A model generated the notes under the pieces. It ran no database searches. It saw only the letters and a list, made by a program, of their open reading frames with translations, and was not told the origin of the DNA. Shown piece after piece: positions 1 to 4,627 of a DNA stretch of 4,627 nt; within the stretch, counting starts at the first letter, position 1; each line of letters opens with the position of its first letter. Source of the DNA: a virus (taxonomy: Duplodnaviria; Heunggongvirae; Uroviricota; Caudoviricetes); IMG/VR virus record IMGVR_UViG_2711768014_000008, one strand, 5' to 3'. Both the position numbers and the translations under genes were made by a program.

Positions 1-160
1 GCTTTGAACTCTTTAGAGTAACGTTGGGTTTTTCTGCTCATTATTAGCTCCTTCTGATGCCATTCTATTTCAGGAAGGAGTGTCCGTTAAACTCAGGCTA
101 CCTCAGGTTATTCGCTTCTGGGCATGGGCGGATCAACAAATGATAGACGGTAATGCAGAT

Positions 161-181
161 TGTAACGCTCGCGGCGTTACA
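161..181. repeat. Perfect inverted repeat TGTAACGC-N5-GCGTTACA, candidate initiator-binding site (ori iteron)
   Basis: Read directly: tgtaacgc (161-168), tcgcg, gcgttaca (174-181). The same 7-8-mer recurs at 371-389 and 406-412. Confidence 0.5.
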
Positions 182-370
182 AAAAGTGCAATAGATCGCA
201 TCACTTTTATGTCTGGTTTTGCTGATGCGTTAATTCAGGTTGGATGGCTGGTCGAAAATGACGGAGGGCTTTCTCTACCTAACTTTGAACGTCATAACGG
301 AAAAAGCTCTAAAAAAAACGGGCGGTTACAAACGAGCGAGTAACAAAAATACGCGAACTGAAACGAAAAG

Positions 371-389
371 GTAACGCTGCCAGCGTTAC
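371..389. repeat. 19-bp perfect palindrome GTAACGCTG-C-CAGCGTTAC, second copy of the GCGTTAC motif
   Basis: Read directly: gtaacgctg (371-379), c (380), cagcgttac (381-389); a further copy gcgttac lies at 406-412. Lies in an A-rich tract (296-410) inside the linker-coding part of the initiator gene. Confidence 0.5.
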
Positions 390-414
390 ACAAACGGATC
401 AAAAAGCGTTACCA

Positions 415-434
415 GAGGAAGAGGAAGAGGAAGA
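415..434 (+). repeat. Tandem hexamer (GAGGAA)x3 plus GA, encoding an EEEEEE acidic linker
   Basis: Read directly: gaggaa at 415-420, 421-426, 427-432, then ga. Confidence 0.9.
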
Positions 435-788
435 TCTAAATACTGATCTCCCCCTCGCCAAAAACGAGCGTCTAAAAAATTCGAGCCGGAGGCTATTGAG
501 CTGCCCGATTGGTTGCCGGAAACACTCTGGCATGAGTGGGTCCGGTTCAGACAGGCATTGCGAAAACCGATTCGAACGGAGCAGGGCGCTAACGGGGCGA
601 TACGGGAACTGGAAAAATTCCGTCAGCAGGGTTTTACACCTGAGCAGGTGATTCGACACAGCATCGCCAATGAATACCAGGGCCTGTTCGCGCCGAAAGG
701 TGTTCGGCCTGAGACGTTGCTCCGACAGGTTAACACCGTCTCGTTGCCGGACAGTGCGATCCCGCCAGGCTTCAGGGGGTAACGGACC

Positions 789-1219
789 ATGAAAAATATT
801 GCGACAGGCGGCGTTCTGGAACGCATCCGCCGACTGACCCCGCCACATGTAACCGCCCCATTCAGAACGGTAGCGGAGTGGCGCGAGTGGCAACTTGCTG
901 AAGGCCAGAAACGTAGCGAGGAGATCAACCGCCTGAATCGCCAGTTGCGGGTGGAAAAAATTCTGAATCGCTCAGGCATCCAGCCGTTGCACCGTAAATG
1001 CTCGTTTGCGAATTACCAGGTGCAGAACGACGGCCAGCGATACGCGTTAAGCCAGGCGAAATCCATCGCCGATGAACTGATGACCGGGTGTACAAATTTT
1101 GCGTTCAGCGGAAAACCTGGTACCGGGAAGAATCACTTAGCGGCAGCTATCGGGAATCGCCTGCTGAAAGACGGTCAGACAGTGATTGTGGTTACCGTGG
1201 CTGATGTTATGAGCGCCCT
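789..1219 (+). CDS. DnaC-like helicase loader (phage replication protein, AAA+ family); 3' portion lost in the N run
   Basis: ATG 789 lies 6 nt after the upstream TAA (translational coupling). The 143 readable codons include the P-loop FSGKPGTGKNHLAAAIGNRLL...VIVVTVADVMSA, which matches the E. coli DnaC Walker A region (GKPGTGKNHLAAAI, with the atypical Asn) as I recall it; the N-terminal part is diverged, so this is a phage paralog rather than chromosomal dnaC. Homologs are about 245 aa, so the real stop should fall inside 1220-1607. The track extension to 1727 is an artefact of reading through N. Confidence 0.85.
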
Positions 1220-1607
1220 NNNNNNNNNNNNNNNNNNNNNNNNNNNNNNNNNNNNNNNNNNNNNNNNNNNNNNNNNNNNNNNNNNNNNNNNNNNNNNNNN
1301 NNNNNNNNNNNNNNNNNNNNNNNNNNNNNNNNNNNNNNNNNNNNNNNNNNNNNNNNNNNNNNNNNNNNNNNNNNNNNNNNNNNNNNNNNNNNNNNNNNNN
1401 NNNNNNNNNNNNNNNNNNNNNNNNNNNNNNNNNNNNNNNNNNNNNNNNNNNNNNNNNNNNNNNNNNNNNNNNNNNNNNNNNNNNNNNNNNNNNNNNNNNN
1501 NNNNNNNNNNNNNNNNNNNNNNNNNNNNNNNNNNNNNNNNNNNNNNNNNNNNNNNNNNNNNNNNNNNNNNNNNNNNNNNNNNNNNNNNNNNNNNNNNNNN
1601 NNNNNNN
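1220..1607. other. Run of 388 N (assembly gap or masked sequence)
   Basis: Read directly. Confidence 1.
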
Positions 1608-1623
1608 AGTTTCAGGAGGATTT

Positions 1624-2046
1624 ATGGCGAAACCTTTTACTCCCGAACAGCGGGAAGAACTGAAGACGCGAATTGTGGAACTCGTGCATCAGGACGGTCG
1701 GGTCACGATTCGGCAGTTGTCAGATGAAACAGGTATCAGTCGTGCGTCTGTCGGTCGCTTATGCATAGAACTGGTCGCAAGTGGTGATGTATATAATTCT
1801 GGCTACGGCTTATTCCCGTCTGAACAGGCTCGCAAGGACTGGCAAAGCGCCCGCAAAAAACTCTCGAGAGTAAAGGTGAGGAAACCGGTTGTTGTTGATC
1901 CGGACCTTATCTGGTCATTACCTGACGGAGAAATACGCCGCTACGACAGGCGCCTGAATATAATCTGTCGCGAGTGCCGGAAGAGCGAAGCTATGCAGCG
2001 TGTACTGGCTTTCTATCAGGGTAATTTTCAGGAGGCGATACTGTGA
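1624..2046 (+). CDS. Ren-like protein (lambda Ren family, Rex-exclusion related) with N-terminal HTH
   Basis: ATG 1624 preceded by AGGAGGA (1614-1620); 140 aa; stop TGA 2044-2046. HTH-like segment RVTIRQLSDETGISRASVGRLCIELVASGDV. The C-terminal ICRECRKSEAMQRVLAFYQG resembles the lambda Ren C-terminus (FKECRQSAAMKRVLAVYG) as I recall it, and the position just after the replication genes matches lambda ren. Confidence 0.75.
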   Translation: MAKPFTPEQREELKTRIVELVHQDGRVTIRQLSDETGISRASVGRLCIELVASGDVYNSGYGLFPSEQARKDWQSARKKLSRVKVRKPVVVDPDLIWSLPDGEIRRYDRRLNIICRECRKSEAMQRVLAFYQGNFQEAIL

Positions 2047-2103
2047 ATGAAATTAGCTATCAGGCTTCAATTACCGCTGGCATTCGCATCAAAGGAGAGG
2101 AGC

Positions 2104-2460
2104 ATGGAAATAAAACCAGAAGATGAGTTAAGCAATATCGTTTTATTTCCGGTAAAAGAGGATGACCCTCGTAATCAGGTTAATTTTCTTTATGAGCCAT
2201 CGGAAAGACCATATTGCCATCACGCCTCTGTACGGGTTGACGAAAAAGAGCGTCAGGTCCGCTGTAAAATCTGCGGTGCGGTTGTGGAGCCGTTTGACTG
2301 GATGCTCTCTGTGGCAAAAAGAGAAACCAGACTGGCAGATGATGTAAGGCTATTGCGCCAGGAGGAACAGGAAAGGCGGAGAAATATAGAAAAGCTGATA
2401 CAGATTGAGCGTAACGCGAAAGCGCGGATACGCAGGGCGACAAAATCCAGAACTGAATAA
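2104..2460 (+). CDS. Hypothetical small protein with Cys/His cluster (possible zinc ribbon) and basic coiled-coil-like C-terminus
   Basis: ATG 2104 preceded by AAGGAGAGGAG; 118 aa; stop TAA 2458-2460. Motif YCHHASVRVDEKERQVRCKICGAV. An in-frame alternative start at ATG 2047 overlaps the upstream stop (TGAATGA) and would give 137 aa. Confidence 0.7.
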   Translation: MEIKPEDELSNIVLFPVKEDDPRNQVNFLYEPSERPYCHHASVRVDEKERQVRCKICGAVVEPFDWMLSVAKRETRLADDVRLLRQEEQERRRNIEKLIQIERNAKARIRRATKSRTE

Positions 2461-2607
2461 TTAAATTTAGCACTGTTAAAAATTTAATCCTTAACCGGAG
2501 GGATTTCTGCACCCTCAAATCATCAGGAGACCACCCGAAAGGGCGGGGAGCAGTCACACATCTGTTTCCGATAGCCCCGTTCTAATGCTACACTCTTTGA
2601 TATTTTT

Positions 2608-3294
2608 ATGACCCCAATAAACATATTTATGACAGTTGCTGATTTCAAACGGCCCAAATTGGAGCTCCCAAACGGGGCAAACAAACTACTACTGCACTCT
2701 TGCTGTGCTCCATGTTCCGGTGAGGTGATGGAGGCGCTTCAGGCCTCGGGAATCGACTACACCATCTTTTTCTACAACCCGAACATTCATCCTCAGAAAG
2801 AGTATTTAATTCGTAAGGATGAGAATATTCGCTTTGCTGAACAACACGGCGTGCCGTTTATTGATGCTGATTACGACACAGACAACTGGTTTGAACGAGC
2901 CAAAGGAATGGAATGGGAGCCCGAACGAGGGATCCGTTGCACCATGTGTTTTGACATGCGTTTTGAGCGGACAGCGCTGTACGCCGCTGAAAATGGTTTC
3001 AGTGTGATCAGCAGTTCACTGGGCATTTCACGCTGGAAAAATATGCAGCAGGTTAACGACTGTGGGCGGCGAGCCGTCGCGCATTATCCGGGCATGGTGT
3101 ACTGGGATTATAACTGGCGCAAGCAGGGCGGCTCGTCCCGTATGATTGAAATCAGCAAGCGCGAAAAATTCTATCAGCAGGAATATTGTGGCTGTGTGTA
3201 TTCTCTGCGCGATACCAATCTACACCGCAAATCTCAGGGACGCCCTCTTATCAAAATTGGTCAACTCCACTACGGTAAAGAAGAGAAGGAGTGA
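2608..3294 (+). CDS. queH: QueH/DUF208-like protein (putative epoxyqueuosine reductase-type Fe-S enzyme)
   Basis: 228-aa ORF, stop TGA 3292-3294. Contains [11 protein letters not shown] (CCAPC encoded at 2701-2715), [14 protein letters not shown] and EYCGC, the cysteine and NPN pattern I associate with the DUF208/QueH family. No Shine-Dalgarno before ATG 2608 or the in-frame ATG 2629, so the start is uncertain. Confidence 0.8.
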
Positions 3295-3443
3295 TTTTAT
3301 GGGGCACCTTTCTGATTGATTTCATATTGGCGAGGTAAGTAGAATGACTGCGGGTGCTTGAGGCTATCTGCTTCAGGCATGAACACCAAAAGGCAGATAG
3401 AGAAAAGCCCCAGTTAACATTACGCGTCCGGCAAGACGCTTAA

Positions 3444-3693
3444 NNNNNNNNNNNNNNNNNNNNNNNNNNNNNNNNNNNNNNNNNNNNNNNNNNNNNNNNN
3501 NNNNNNNNNNNNNNNNNNNNNNNNNNNNNNNNNNNNNNNNNNNNNNNNNNNNNNNNNNNNNNNNNNNNNNNNNNNNNNNNNNNNNNNNNNNNNNNNNNNN
3601 NNNNNNNNNNNNNNNNNNNNNNNNNNNNNNNNNNNNNNNNNNNNNNNNNNNNNNNNNNNNNNNNNNNNNNNNNNNNNNNNNNNNNNNNNNNNN
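3444..3693. other. Run of 250 N (assembly gap or masked sequence)
   Basis: Read directly. Confidence 1.
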
Positions 3694-3717
3694 CATCCTC
3701 AACGCACCCGCACTTAA

Positions 3718-3760
3718 CCCGCCCATCGCTGTGATCTCTCAGCGTTTCGGCGGGTTTTTT
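3718..3760 (+). terminator. Rho-independent terminator (GC stem with internal hairpin, followed by T6)
   Basis: CCCGCC (3718-3723) pairs with GGCGGG (3749-3754); nested CGCTG (3727-3731) pairs with CAGCG (3740-3744); TTTTTT at 3755-3760. No matching U-tract on the minus strand. Confidence 0.7.
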
Positions 3761-3780
3761 GTTGTTTATTTCCGGTGAAT

Positions 3781-3808
3781 TTGATTCGCGCACCTTCGCA
3801 GATAGAAT
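3781..3808 (+). promoter_or_regulatory. sigma70-like promoter: TTGATT, 16-nt spacer, TAGAAT
   Basis: -35 TTGATT at 3781-3786, 16-nt spacer, -10 TAGAAT at 3803-3808. Predicted start near 3815, about 75 nt upstream of ATG 3890 and directly after the terminator. Confidence 0.5.
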
Positions 3809-3889
3809 CGACTCACTTAAGTAGCGCGCAGGGAGAAGAGGGATGGACCCCGAACAGGGGAGAGCTATTTATCTGGAAGGATTCTGAAG

Positions 3890-4177
3890 ATGAAAATCGA
3901 AGAATTGCGTGAAATTTTTAGTGAAAATGGCCTCTATGCTGTGCGCGTTGAGAATGGAGCGATTGTCAGCCATTGCCGCATTAGATGTTTGCAATCTCAA
4001 CAAAGGAAGAGCGGTGCTGTGTTATTTTATTTTTGTAATGGACTTCTGACGGACGGTTTTATTTTGCGTGAGGACGAATTTGTCACATCATTACGGGTTT
4101 TGAAAGAGATTGGTTTTAAGGCTGGTTTTCTGCTTTTGCTGAAGAATAAACTCATCTACAATCTTGAGCAGGATTGA
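3890..4177 (+). CDS. Hypothetical 95-aa protein; lower-GC (about 40%) moron-like ORF
   Basis: ATG 3890 with GGAAGGA 8 nt upstream; stop TGA 4175-4177. GC counted by hand as 114/288. No family recognised. Confidence 0.6.
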   Translation: MKIEELREIFSENGLYAVRVENGAIVSHCRIRCLQSQQRKSGAVLFYFCNGLLTDGFILREDEFVTSLRVLKEIGFKAGFLLLLKNKLIYNLEQD

Positions 4178-4215
4178 ACTCCTGCTGTGTAACACCGTGC
4201 CACCGGAGAAAGCCG

Positions 4216-4569
4216 ATGGCACATATACAACTGGTCAAACAAACCTCTTCCGGATTACTTCTCCCGGCGACGCCGGAGAGTTGCGATTTTCTGCATCAAA
4301 TCAAAATAGGTGAGTGGATACACGCAGACTTTAAGCGTGTGTGTAACTACGCATTCCACAAGCGTTTTTTCAAACTCCTGCAACTGGGTTTCGATTACTG
4401 GACTCCGGTCGGTGGGGCGATCACGCCTCGCGAACGAAAACTGGTGTCCGGTTTCGTTGATTACCTGTGTGAATCAGTAGGCCGGGAACATACGCCAGCT
4501 CTGAGCGAAGCCGCAGAGCAATTGAGGTGTACTGGCAATAGCGGACACTACCATTTGTTCTTTTTTTAA
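4216..4569 (+). CDS. Hypothetical 117-aa phage protein (possibly a conserved nin-region family; not firmly recognised)
   Basis: ATG 4216 with GGAG 7 nt upstream, preferred over the track's TTG 4174. The stop TAA 4567-4569 is formed at the end of a T7 run (4561-4567), so the C-terminus may be artefactual. Confidence 0.65.
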   Translation: MAHIQLVKQTSSGLLLPATPESCDFLHQIKIGEWIHADFKRVCNYAFHKRFFKLLQLGFDYWTPVGGAITPRERKLVSGFVDYLCESVGREHTPALSEAAEQLRCTGNSGHYHLFFF

Positions 4570-4627
4570 GCAGCCATCTGATGATATTTTTCCCTGAAGG
4601 CTGCCGGGGAGATATTCCCCAGACGAG

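What the first reader, a model, noticed from the sequence alone, without database searches (positions are those of the whole stretch)
3295..3760. Hairpin-rich non-coding stretch flanking the second masked gap and ending in a strong terminator: possible small RNA or hidden small gene
The 149 nt after the QueH-like stop have no ORF on the + strand and contain nested pairings: TGGGGC (3300-3305) with GCCCCA (3407-3412), enclosing CTATCTGC (3364-3371) paired to GCAGATAG (3393-3400), plus GCGTC (3424-3428) paired to GACGC (3435-3439). Then come 250 N, and 24 nt after the gap a rho-independent terminator. Either the QueH-like transcript has a long structured 3' UTR, or a small RNA or small ORF (up to about 80-100 codons) lies in the masked part and terminates at 3718-3760. 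Frame 1 has a TAA at 3715-3717 immediately before the terminator stem, which would suit a small gene ending there.
Basis: partly seen in the sequence, partly recalled or inferred. Interest (0 to 1): 0.5.

Follow-up and report, generated by a model that had tools for sequence, protein, structure and literature searches.

The report
Prophage hok/sok toxin-antitoxin locus
The hairpin-rich "spacer" and its terminator are the two ends of an ordinary, well-known hok/sok toxin–antitoxin cassette (a small membrane toxin gene kept silent by an antisense RNA), whose coding middle is hidden by the run of N.

Summary
The stretch 3295-3760 is not a QueH 3' UTR and not a new small RNA. It is a hok/sok-family type I toxin-antitoxin locus of the hokD/hokW type, sitting in a lambdoid prophage fragment.

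- **Unmasked relative:** E. coli FDAARGOS_944 is 100% identical on both sides of the mask. There the 250 N stand for 287 bases. These hold a 51-codon hok gene (Pfam HOK_GEF, 81 bits) nested in a 70-codon mok frame, and the 5' half and promoter of the antisense Sok RNA.
- **Visible left flank:** it carries the hok promoter, the mRNA 5' end (tac), a conserved hairpin, the ucb box and the 3' half of Sok. Rfam RF01794 scores 53.9 bits on the truncated window and 117 bits on the unmasked sequence.
- **Visible right flank:** it carries the fbi element, which pairs with tac over about 385 nt, followed by the terminator. This pairing covaries across 18 distinct loci.
- **Closest studied relative:** the locus is 91% identical to hokW-sokW of phage 933W/Sp5, which has been characterised experimentally. 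The Hok proteins match at 50 of 51 residues.
right that a small gene and a small RNA hide in the mask and end at the terminator. Wrong about the outer TGGGGC/GCCCCA pairing and about the TAA at 3715 being a stop codon.

Verdict: already known, low interest.

The parts
3316..3345 (+). Putative sigma-70 promoter of the mok/hok mRNA: -35 TTGATT (3316-3321), 18-nt spacer, -10 TAGAAT (3340-3345).
   Evidence: Promoter scan on the identical relative (L001 3717-3746). A TAnAAT-like -10 box sits at the same distance from tac in 30 related loci. Function is inferred, not shown.
3350..3363 (+). 5' end of the hok mRNA, the tac element (GCGGGTGCTTGAGG). It pairs with fbi in the full-length RNA and with ucb in the processed RNA.
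   Evidence: Rfam RF01794 starts at 3352. Inverted repeats I2 and I6 match 3697-3712. The full-length fold pairs nt 1-14 with the 3' end. Mean pairwise identity is 0.91 across 30 loci. Covariation with fbi is shown. The transcription start (about 3350-3352) is inferred from the -10 spacing.
3364..3400 (+). Conserved 5' leader hairpin (CUAUCUGCUU ... AGGCAGAUAG).
   Evidence: Paired in the Rfam RF01794 consensus and in every fold.
3405..3411 (+). ucb (anti-Shine-Dalgarno) box AAGCCCC. Its alternative partners are tac (3352-3359) and the mok SD GAGG inside the mask.
   Evidence: Rfam consensus stem. The 5'-fragment fold pairs it with tac. The full-length fold pairs GCC with the GGC of the mok SD region. 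Mean pairwise identity is 0.90.
3403..3443 (-). Visible 3' part of the antisense Sok RNA: half of its terminator hairpin, tipped by GCGTC/GACGC, plus GGGGCUUUU. Its 5' tail, -10 (TAACCT) and -35 (TTGCCT) lie in the mask (L001 3845-3909). On the + strand the same bases are the Sok target hairpin of the hok mRNA.
   Evidence: Mapped from the sokW misc_RNA annotated in 933W and VT2-Sakai through alignment A1 to L001 3804-3874. It folds as a 15-nt tail plus a long hairpin plus UUUU, z = -4.7. The -10 box coincides with the bases replaced in the promoter-less sokW mutant of PMC8621323 (primer YO-421).
3444..3693 (+). Masked stretch. The 250 N stand for 287 nt in the identical relative (L001 3845-4131). 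They hold the mok SD and start, the Sok 5' half and promoter (- strand), mok (70 codons, L001 3866-4078), hok (51 codons, L001 3923-4078) and a 3' UTR hairpin.
   Evidence: Pfam HOK_GEF 81.1 bits against a cut-off of 22. PGAP annotates it as 'type I toxin-antitoxin system toxin HokD'. The content is inferred from relatives that are identical in both flanks. The nearest other relatives differ at one masked position only.
3697..3711 (+). fbi (fold-back inhibitory) element CCTCAACGCACCCGC, complementary to tac.
3716..3761 (+). Intrinsic terminator of the hok mRNA: outer stem AACCCGCC/GGCGGGTT, inner stem CGCTG/CAGCG, then a T run.
   Evidence: Fold of -22.8 kcal/mol, z = -5.4; repeat I3. It lies outside the core conserved with 933W.

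Best explanation
The region is a complete hok/sok-family type I toxin-antitoxin cassette of the hokD/hokW subtype, carried by a lambdoid prophage fragment immediately downstream of queH.

Layout (shown at sequence level):
- A promoter at 3316-3345 drives a mok/hok mRNA of about 410-450 nt. It starts near 3350 and ends at the terminator 3716-3761.
- The masked middle encodes the 51-aa membrane toxin Hok. Its reading frame is nested in the 70-codon mok frame.
- On the opposite strand it also encodes a Sok RNA of about 71 nt, complementary to the mok translation-initiation region.

Mechanism (inferred by homology with R1 hok/sok and Sp5 hokW-sokW):
1. In the full-length mRNA the 5' tac element (3350-3363) pairs with the 3' fbi element (3697-3711).
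2. This long-range pairing locks the RNA in a closed form. The ucb box (3405-3411) sequesters the mok Shine-Dalgarno, so the RNA is neither translated nor bound by Sok.
3. Slow 3' trimming removes fbi. tac then pairs with ucb, which frees the mok SD and the Sok target.
4. Abundant but unstable Sok pairs with the target and the duplex is destroyed, with RNase III contributing.
5. If Sok transcription stops, for example on loss of the element or on prophage induction, the stable processed mRNA is translated. Hok then depolarises the inner membrane.

For: - **Unmasking:** the window is 100% identical to E. coli FDAARGOS_944 over 2600-4200 outside the mask. That record holds hokD at the masked position and shows the full sequence.
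- **Toxin:** Pfam HOK_GEF 81.1 bits against a cut-off of 22. It matches HokW at 50 of 51 aa. HokW was shown to be toxic, inner-membrane located and neutralised by sokW (PMC8621323).
- **mok:** a 70-codon ORF ends at the same stop as hok.
- **Leader RNA:** Rfam RF01794 scores 53.9 bits on the window, where it is truncated by the mask. It scores 117 bits, full length 1-157, on the unmasked locus against a gathering score of 59. The same model hits 12 of 12 related loci, on the hok strand and ending at the hok ATG.
- **tac/fbi:** complementary arms span the mask. The 449-nt fold closes nt 1-14 onto the 3' end, at -195 kcal/mol and z = -9.5. In 18 distinct loci from Escherichia, Kluyvera, Citrobacter, Photorhabdus, Pantoea, Erwinia and Kalamiella the 12 core pairs are almost always paired (89% over all 14 pairs, including the two poorly paired outermost ones). 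Compensatory changes occur at 3 pairs (U-A to C-G, G-C to A-U). Slid controls give 24-60% paired.
- **Sok:** sokW is annotated in 933W and Sakai. The homologous 71 nt fold into a tail plus hairpin plus UUUU. The -10 box matches the site mutated in the promoter-less construct.
- **Conservation pattern:** tac 0.91, ucb 0.90 and mok SD 0.89 are the best conserved non-coding parts. Identity collapses upstream of the -10 and after fbi.
- **Distribution:** 4713 of 5426 complete E. coli genomes carry a match. There are 110 matching phage records. hok genes are known to be enriched in prophages (preprint 10.1101/2025.08.07.668861).
- **Mechanism:** as described for R1 in PMC9841398.
Against: - The coding core of this very window cannot be read because it is masked. 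Its content is inferred from relatives identical in the flanks.
- The source genome was not found. Only two E. coli records cover the region, and neither has the IS600 junctions.
- The NCBIfam Hok subfamily model scores 55 bits, below its cut-off of 73.
- The thermodynamic fold of a 3'-trimmed RNA did not give the tac/ucb stem. It gave a hairpin of tac with the sequence just downstream, so the 'open' conformation is not reproduced in silico.
- The Sok promoter is a weak consensus match (TTGCCT-17-TAACCT) and the scan did not pick it up.
- Several chromosomal hok loci have been reported as unable to mediate post-segregational killing (preprint).
- No expression data are available.
Confidence: 0.95

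Rival explanations
1. It is a hok/sok locus by descent but is functionally dead in this genome. It could be mutated within the masked part, or silent like several chromosomal hok loci. It would then be a relic in an IS600-eroded prophage fragment rather than an active toxin-antitoxin module.
For: - The fragment is bracketed by two IS600 ends, and neighbouring genes are truncated or frameshifted.
- K-12 hokD has lost its whole leader. It matches only from L001 3909 onwards.
- Chromosomal hokA, hokB and hokC were reported unable to mediate post-segregational killing (preprint).
- The masked core cannot be inspected.
Against: - Every regulatory element visible in the window is intact and identical to the relative (promoter, tac, ucb, Sok 3' half, fbi, terminator).
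- The nearest relatives have an intact hok that matches the experimentally toxic HokW at 50 of 51 aa, with mostly synonymous differences.
- Those relatives differ from each other at only one masked position, which is non-coding.
Confidence: 0.15
2. The hairpins are a long structured 3' UTR of the queH transcript, which ends at the 3716-3761 terminator.
For: - There is no terminator between the queH stop (3294) and the hok promoter, so read-through from queH into the cassette is possible.
- A fold of 3295-3443 does use the TGGGGC/GCCCCA pairing, with z = -2.6.
Against: - The structured elements recur next to unrelated upstream genes. In 933W the neighbours are an Ea22-like gene and a hypothetical gene.
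- Homology begins only at the -10 box.
- They match the hok leader model.
- A promoter precedes them.
- TGGGGC is not conserved.
Confidence: 0.03
3. An unrelated trans-acting small RNA or a different small protein gene lies in the mask and merely shares the terminator.
For: Prophages of E. coli do carry many small RNAs. Nothing in the window alone identifies the masked bases.
Against: - The two flanks are the two ends of one hok mRNA: tac and fbi are complementary and covary.
- Every relative with these flanks holds hok between them.
- No other Rfam family matches, and there is no tRNA.
Confidence: 0.02

Closest known systems
hokW-sokW of Stx2 phages 933W / Sakai prophage 5 (Sp5)
   Same: - About 91% nucleotide identity from the -10 box to fbi.
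- Hok identical at 50 of 51 aa.
- The same mok overlap, the same Sok hairpin, the same Sok -10 box, and identical tac and fbi.
- Also prophage-borne.
- Shown experimentally to be a type I TA system, partly dependent on RNase III and Hfq. It aids lysis and phage release on induction (PMC8621323).
   Different: - **Sok 5' tail and mok start:** 6 of 15 positions differ, against about 2% in the flanking leader. Cross-neutralisation is therefore uncertain.
- **3' end:** the 3' UTR hairpin and the terminator differ.
- **Genomic position:** here it sits between queH and the DUF1367 nin-region genes. In 933W it sits between Ea22-like/hypothetical genes and a YgiW/YdeI-like gene.
hokD (relF) of the Qin prophage, E. 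coli K-12
   Same: Same Hok subtype and same PGAP name. It is 91% identical over the hok CDS, 3' UTR and fbi (H81).
   Different: The K-12 copy matches only from L001 3909 onwards. It lacks the promoter, tac, ucb, the Sok target and the Sok gene, because it lies downstream of relBE. The present locus has the complete leader.
hok/sok of plasmid R1 (the paradigm)
   Same: Same architecture and regulatory logic: mok/hok overlap, antisense Sok, tac/fbi closure, ucb/SD sequestration and 3' processing (PMC9841398). Same Pfam and Rfam families.
   Different: - It is distant in sequence. HokW is 44% identical to R1 Hok (PMC8621323), and no blastn match to R1-type loci beyond short segments was seen.
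- It is plasmid-borne and works by post-segregational killing, rather than being prophage-borne.

Membership tests
[quoted passage not shown] | Small (about 50 aa) hydrophobic Hok/Gef toxin ORF (Pfam PF01848) | tested here: met
   In the flank-identical relative: 51 aa, HOK_GEF 81.1 bits against a cut-off of 22, and 50 of 51 aa identical to HokW. It is masked in the window itself. The NCBIfam Hok subfamily model scores only 55 bits against a cut-off of 73.
[quoted passage not shown] | Overlapping upstream mok reading frame that ends at the hok stop | tested here: met
   A 70-codon ORF at L001 3866-4078 shares its stop with hok. It is preceded by GAGG 8 nt upstream. Translational coupling itself cannot be tested here.
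[quoted passage not shown] | Conserved hok mRNA leader sequence and structure (Rfam RF01794) | tested here: met
   117 bits, model 1-157, against a gathering score of 59 on the unmasked locus. The window alone gives 53.9 bits, model 1-58, below gathering because the mask cuts it.
[quoted passage not shown] | Long-range 5' tac / 3' fbi pairing that closes the full-length mRNA | tested here: met
   Arms 3349-3363 and 3697-3712. Present in the MFE and centroid fold, z = -9.5. 89% of cells paired over 18 distinct loci, with 3 pairs changed on both sides, against 24-60% in slid controls. Caveat: the fbi segments were located with a pattern, and most compensatory changes come from one clade (Photorhabdus).
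[quoted passage not shown] | cis-antisense Sok RNA gene complementary to the mok translation-initiation region, with its own promoter | tested here: met
   Homologous to the annotated sokW. It folds as a 15-nt tail plus hairpin plus UUUU. The -10 TAACCT aligns with the bases mutated in the promoter-less sokW construct. This is sequence-level evidence only, and transcription is not shown.
[quoted passage not shown] | Switch to a tac/ucb 'open' structure after 3' processing, which frees the mok SD and the Sok target | tested here: inconclusive
   The tac/ucb stem is the MFE of the 5' fragment and is the Rfam consensus. However, the fold of the RNA trimmed before fbi gave a tac-proximal hairpin instead.
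[quoted passage not shown] | Hok toxicity, neutralisation by Sok, and RNase III cleavage of the duplex | not testable with these tools
   Shown for the 98%-identical HokW and for sokW in PMC8621323, but not for this locus.

The most novel reading that the evidence does not exclude
This hok/sok copy may be insulated from the other hok/sok copies in the same cell by a divergent Sok 5' tail (6 of 15 positions differ from sokW). It may then act as the addiction or lysis-timing module that has kept this 4.4-kb, IS600-bracketed prophage fragment (queH, hok/sok, replication and nin genes) from being deleted. In short, a TA-stabilised, IS-flanked cargo block rather than just one more redundant copy.
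Probability: 0.1. Interest if true: 0.3.

Novelty: already known. Interest (0 to 1): 0.08.

Why it matters
It matters little beyond correct annotation.
- The locus type is textbook. It is annotated as hokD in RefSeq for the identical sequence, and matches are found in 4713 of 5426 complete E. coli genomes searched.
- One practical lesson is that the masked run hides a toxin gene and is not length-preserving. Structural or ORF reasoning across such gaps, such as the frame of the TAA at 3715, is therefore unreliable.
- A second is that Rfam's 'sok' model actually matches the sense hok leader.
- A minor biological point is that this copy retains the full regulatory leader that K-12 hokD has lost. 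It could therefore be active, for example in lysis timing on induction, as shown for hokW.

Tried and rejected
- **tRNA/tmRNA scan of the window:** none found, so the mask does not hide the tRNA cluster typical of lambdoid late regions. In the relative that cluster lies about 2 kb further downstream.
- **Other Rfam families:** only a spurious ceN48 match at E = 0.72.
- **Consensus terminator scan:** it found nothing because the terminator has a composite stem. Folding showed it clearly.
- **Consensus promoter scan:** it did not find the Sok promoter (3 of 6 match in the -10). I located it by homology instead.
- **NCBIfam:** the Hok models scored below their cut-offs.
- **Source genome:** I tried to find the exact source so as to read the masked bases directly. 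Only FDAARGOS_944 and FDAARGOS_943 cover the region, and neither has the IS600 junctions.
- **Plasmid search:** it gave hokD-type copies on P1-like and other plasmids, and only short matches to DUF5431/Hok loci of Klebsiella plasmids. That was not useful for alignment.
- **QueH 3' UTR reading:** considered and rejected, see the rival explanations.
- **29-codon GTG ORF at 3354-3443:** considered as a possible gene. It overlaps the conserved RNA leader and there is no evidence for coding.

Full report
**What is in the sequence**

I read the whole window and listed its ORFs. The genes around them show a lambdoid prophage:
- a DnaC/YdaV-like ATPase gene, interrupted by the first mask
- a DUF977 gene
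- a zinc-ribbon gene
- QueH (Pfam 220 bits)
- a 95-aa ORF with no family
- a DUF1367 gene

There is no tRNA.

**First clue from the window alone**

A permissive Rfam search gave a single hit. RF01794 ('sok antitoxin') matched at 3352-3411 on the + strand, at 53.9 bits and E = 2e-10. It covered model positions 1-58 of 157 and stopped where the N run begins.

An inverted-repeat search then showed that 3349-3363 (TGCGGGTGCTTGAGG) is complementary to 3697-3712 on the other side of the mask (I2 and I6). That is the signature 5'-3' closure (tac/fbi) of hok mRNAs.

**Unmasking**

Megablast against complete E. coli genomes found two records, FDAARGOS_944 and FDAARGOS_943, that are 100% identical over window 2600-4200 outside the mask. 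Both flanks of the finding match exactly.

In FDAARGOS_944 (locus L001) PGAP annotates 'type I toxin-antitoxin system toxin HokD' in the position of the mask. The 250 N correspond to 287 real bases (L001 3845-4131), so the mask does not keep length. The first mask (388 N) likewise replaces 462 bases.

The unmasked stretch contains:
- a 51-codon hok ORF (L001 3923-4078)
- a 70-codon mok ORF (3866-4078) that ends at the same stop

Hok scores 81.1 bits on Pfam HOK_GEF against a cut-off of 22. On NCBIfam the Hok subfamily model reaches only 55 bits, below its cut-off of 73.

On the unmasked DNA, RF01794 matches full length (1-157) at 117 bits, against a gathering score of 59. The match ends exactly at the hok ATG.

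Two further close relatives (L004 and L005) differ from L001 at only one masked position, which is non-coding. The inferred content of the mask is therefore robust, although it cannot be verified for this genome.

**Anatomy in window coordinates**

| Element | Position | Notes |
|---|---|---|
| hok promoter | 3316-3345 | TTGATT, 18 nt, TAGAAT |
| tac (mRNA 5' end) | 3350-3363 | pairs with fbi or ucb |
| ucb | 3405-3411 | AAGCCCC |
| Sok RNA, visible 3' part | 3403-3443, - strand | rest lies in the mask |
| fbi | 3697-3711 | complementary to tac |
| Terminator | 3716-3761 | -22.8 kcal/mol, z = -5.4 |

The antisense Sok RNA corresponds to L001 3804-3874. I mapped it from the sokW feature annotated in phages 933W and VT2-Sakai through a pairwise alignment. 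Its 71 nt fold into a 15-nt single-stranded 5' tail, a long hairpin and a UUUU end, with z = -4.7.

Relative to the Rfam consensus that tip is an insertion.

The Sok -10 box (TAACCT, L001 3886-3881) coincides with the bases replaced in the promoter-less sokW mutant of Takada et al. (primer YO-421; PMC8621323).

**Structure**

The 449-nt full-length RNA folds at -195.4 kcal/mol with z = -9.5. Its first 14 nt pair with the fbi segment, and the GCC of ucb pairs with the mok SD region.

The 5' fragment alone forms the tac/ucb stem, as in the Rfam consensus.

The RNA trimmed just before fbi folded with tac paired to the sequence immediately downstream. This resembles the metastable hairpin described for R1 rather than the 'open' form, so the processing-dependent switch is not reproduced by MFE prediction.

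**Comparative evidence**

A scan of species-representative genomes with Hok returned 47 loci. An alignment of 41 distinct loci shows a -10-like box at a fixed distance from tac, then tac, ucb and the mok SD.

Mean pairwise identity over 30 loci with a complete leader:

| Segment | Identity |
|---|---|
| tac | 0.91 |
| ucb | 0.90 |
| mok SD | 0.89 |
| hok CDS | 0.79 |
| Sok hairpin | 0.37 |
| after fbi | 0.25 |

For tac/fbi I extracted both elements, aligned 18 distinct combinations and counted pairs.
- 89% of cells are paired, against 24-60% when the partner is slid.
- The 12 core pairs are almost always paired.
- Changes on both sides occur at three pairs. GGGUGC:GCACCC in Escherichia, Kluyvera and Citrobacter becomes GGGCGC:GCGCCC in Photorhabdus and Pantoea. 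GAGG:CCUC becomes GAGA:UCUC.
- Caveats: I located fbi with a pattern, and the compensatory changes are largely one clade's.

RF01794 hits 12 of 12 tested relatives above gathering. Each hit is on the hok strand and reaches the hok start. The Rfam 'sok' model therefore describes the sense hok leader, which contains the Sok gene on its opposite strand.

**Relation to known loci**

The locus is about 91% identical to hokW-sokW of 933W/Sp5 from the -10 box to fbi, and Hok matches at 50 of 51 aa. Differences from hokW are concentrated in a few places:

| Segment | Differences |
|---|---|
| Sok 5' tail / mok start | 6 of 15 positions |
| Adjoining Sok hairpin region and Sok promoter/mok-only segment | about 2% |
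| 3' UTR hairpin | 30% |
| Upstream of the -10 | 88% |
| After fbi | 78% |

This pattern defines the boundaries of the module.

hokW-sokW was shown to be a type I TA system. HokW is toxic and located in the inner membrane. sokW neutralises it, with partial dependence on RNase III and Hfq. sokW disappears on mitomycin C induction, and the locus doubles phage release (PMC8621323).

K-12 hokD matches only from L001 3909 onwards (H81). It therefore lacks the whole leader, whereas this copy is complete.

Matches occur in 4713 of 5426 complete E. coli genomes, in 110 phage records and in 1523 plasmid records, of which 254 cover at least 80% of the query. Enrichment of hok genes in prophages has been described (preprint 10.1101/2025.08.07.668861). 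The R1 mechanism (tac/fbi, ucb/SD, 3' processing, Sok and RNase III) is summarised in PMC9841398.

- **Correct:** the inner hairpin, the small hairpin, the terminator, and the idea that a small gene and/or RNA hides in the mask and ends at the terminator.
- **Not supported:** TGGGGC (3300-3305) pairing with GCCCCA. TGGGGC lies upstream of the hok -35 box and outside the conserved module, and it is not conserved in 933W. GCCCC is ucb, which has conserved partners elsewhere.
- **Not supported:** the TAA at 3715-3717 as a gene stop. No ORF of 20 aa or more ends there, and hok and mok stop 53 nt inside the masked stretch.
- **Rejected:** the QueH 3' UTR reading. The elements have their own promoter and recur beside unrelated upstream genes. 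Read-through from queH cannot be excluded, because no terminator separates the two.

**Verdict**

This is a known, annotated hok/sok (hokD/hokW-type) type I toxin-antitoxin cassette. It is not novel and is of low interest. Confidence in the identification is about 0.95. Whether this particular copy is active remains open: I put the 'dead relic' rival at about 0.15.

Noticed in passing
window 1-104 and 4523-4627: Both ends of the window are IS600 ends, 100% identical to 'IS3-like element IS600 family transposase' elements. Positions 1-104 on the - strand are the IS600 left end with the orfA start. Positions 4523-4627 are the right end reading inward. The 4.4-kb prophage fragment 105-4522 is therefore bracketed by two IS600 copies in the same orientation, and the DUF1367 gene is cut at 4522.
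   Followed up: partly
window 80-782: The replication-initiator-like gene is a single 262-aa CDS in FDAARGOS_944 (L001 469-1257). In the window it is 98.8% identical but has two gap openings, and it is split into ORFs in different frames (80-343 and 513-782). It is probably a pseudogene. A-rich runs near 301-320 and 470-480 are the likely sites.
   Followed up: partly
window 1220-1607 and 3444-3693: Neither mask preserves length. The 388 N replace 462 bases inside the ydaV/DnaC-like ATPase gene. The 250 N replace 287 bases holding hok, mok and sok. Reading frames cannot be carried across the N runs.
   Followed up: yes
window 3781-3808: A second promoter-like site lies directly after the hok terminator: TTGATT, 16 nt, TAGAAT, with the same hexamers as the hok promoter (L001 4219-4246). 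It sits upstream of the 95-aa ORF 3890-4177, which has no Pfam or NCBIfam match.
   Followed up: no
L001 3860-3874 (inside the mask; Sok 5' tail / mok start): Compared with hokW-sokW of 933W, 6 of 15 positions differ here, against about 2% in the neighbouring leader. The same segment varies among E. coli-type loci. This could insulate co-resident hok/sok copies from each other's Sok. E. coli genomes carry up to 9 matching places.
   Followed up: partly
L001 4055-4068 (inside the mask; Hok Tyr47 codon): The Tyr47 codon sits in CUACGAA, flanked by the complementary UUCG/CGAA. This resembles the TadA (tRNA-Arg anticodon loop) A-to-I editing motif. A preprint states that hokC, hokD and hokE mRNAs are edited to give a cysteine near this position (10.1101/2025.08.07.668861).
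   Followed up: no
window 2608-3294: A QueH-type epoxyqueuosine reductase (Pfam 220 bits) is carried as prophage cargo right next to the TA cassette. It is 96% identical in many E. coli prophages.
   Followed up: no
Rfam RF01794, on all loci tested: The Rfam family named 'sok antitoxin' aligns to the strand of hok and runs from the mRNA 5' end to the hok ATG in 13 of 13 loci. It therefore models the sense hok leader rather than the antisense Sok RNA. Strand calls from it should be read accordingly.
   Followed up: yes
L047 262-289 and L048 876-965: Near the hok loci of Kalamiella and Erwinia, Rfam gathering-level hits appear to a CRISPR-DR4 repeat (50 bits) and to sRNA-Xcc1 (61.5 bits). They are unrelated to the finding.
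   Followed up: no
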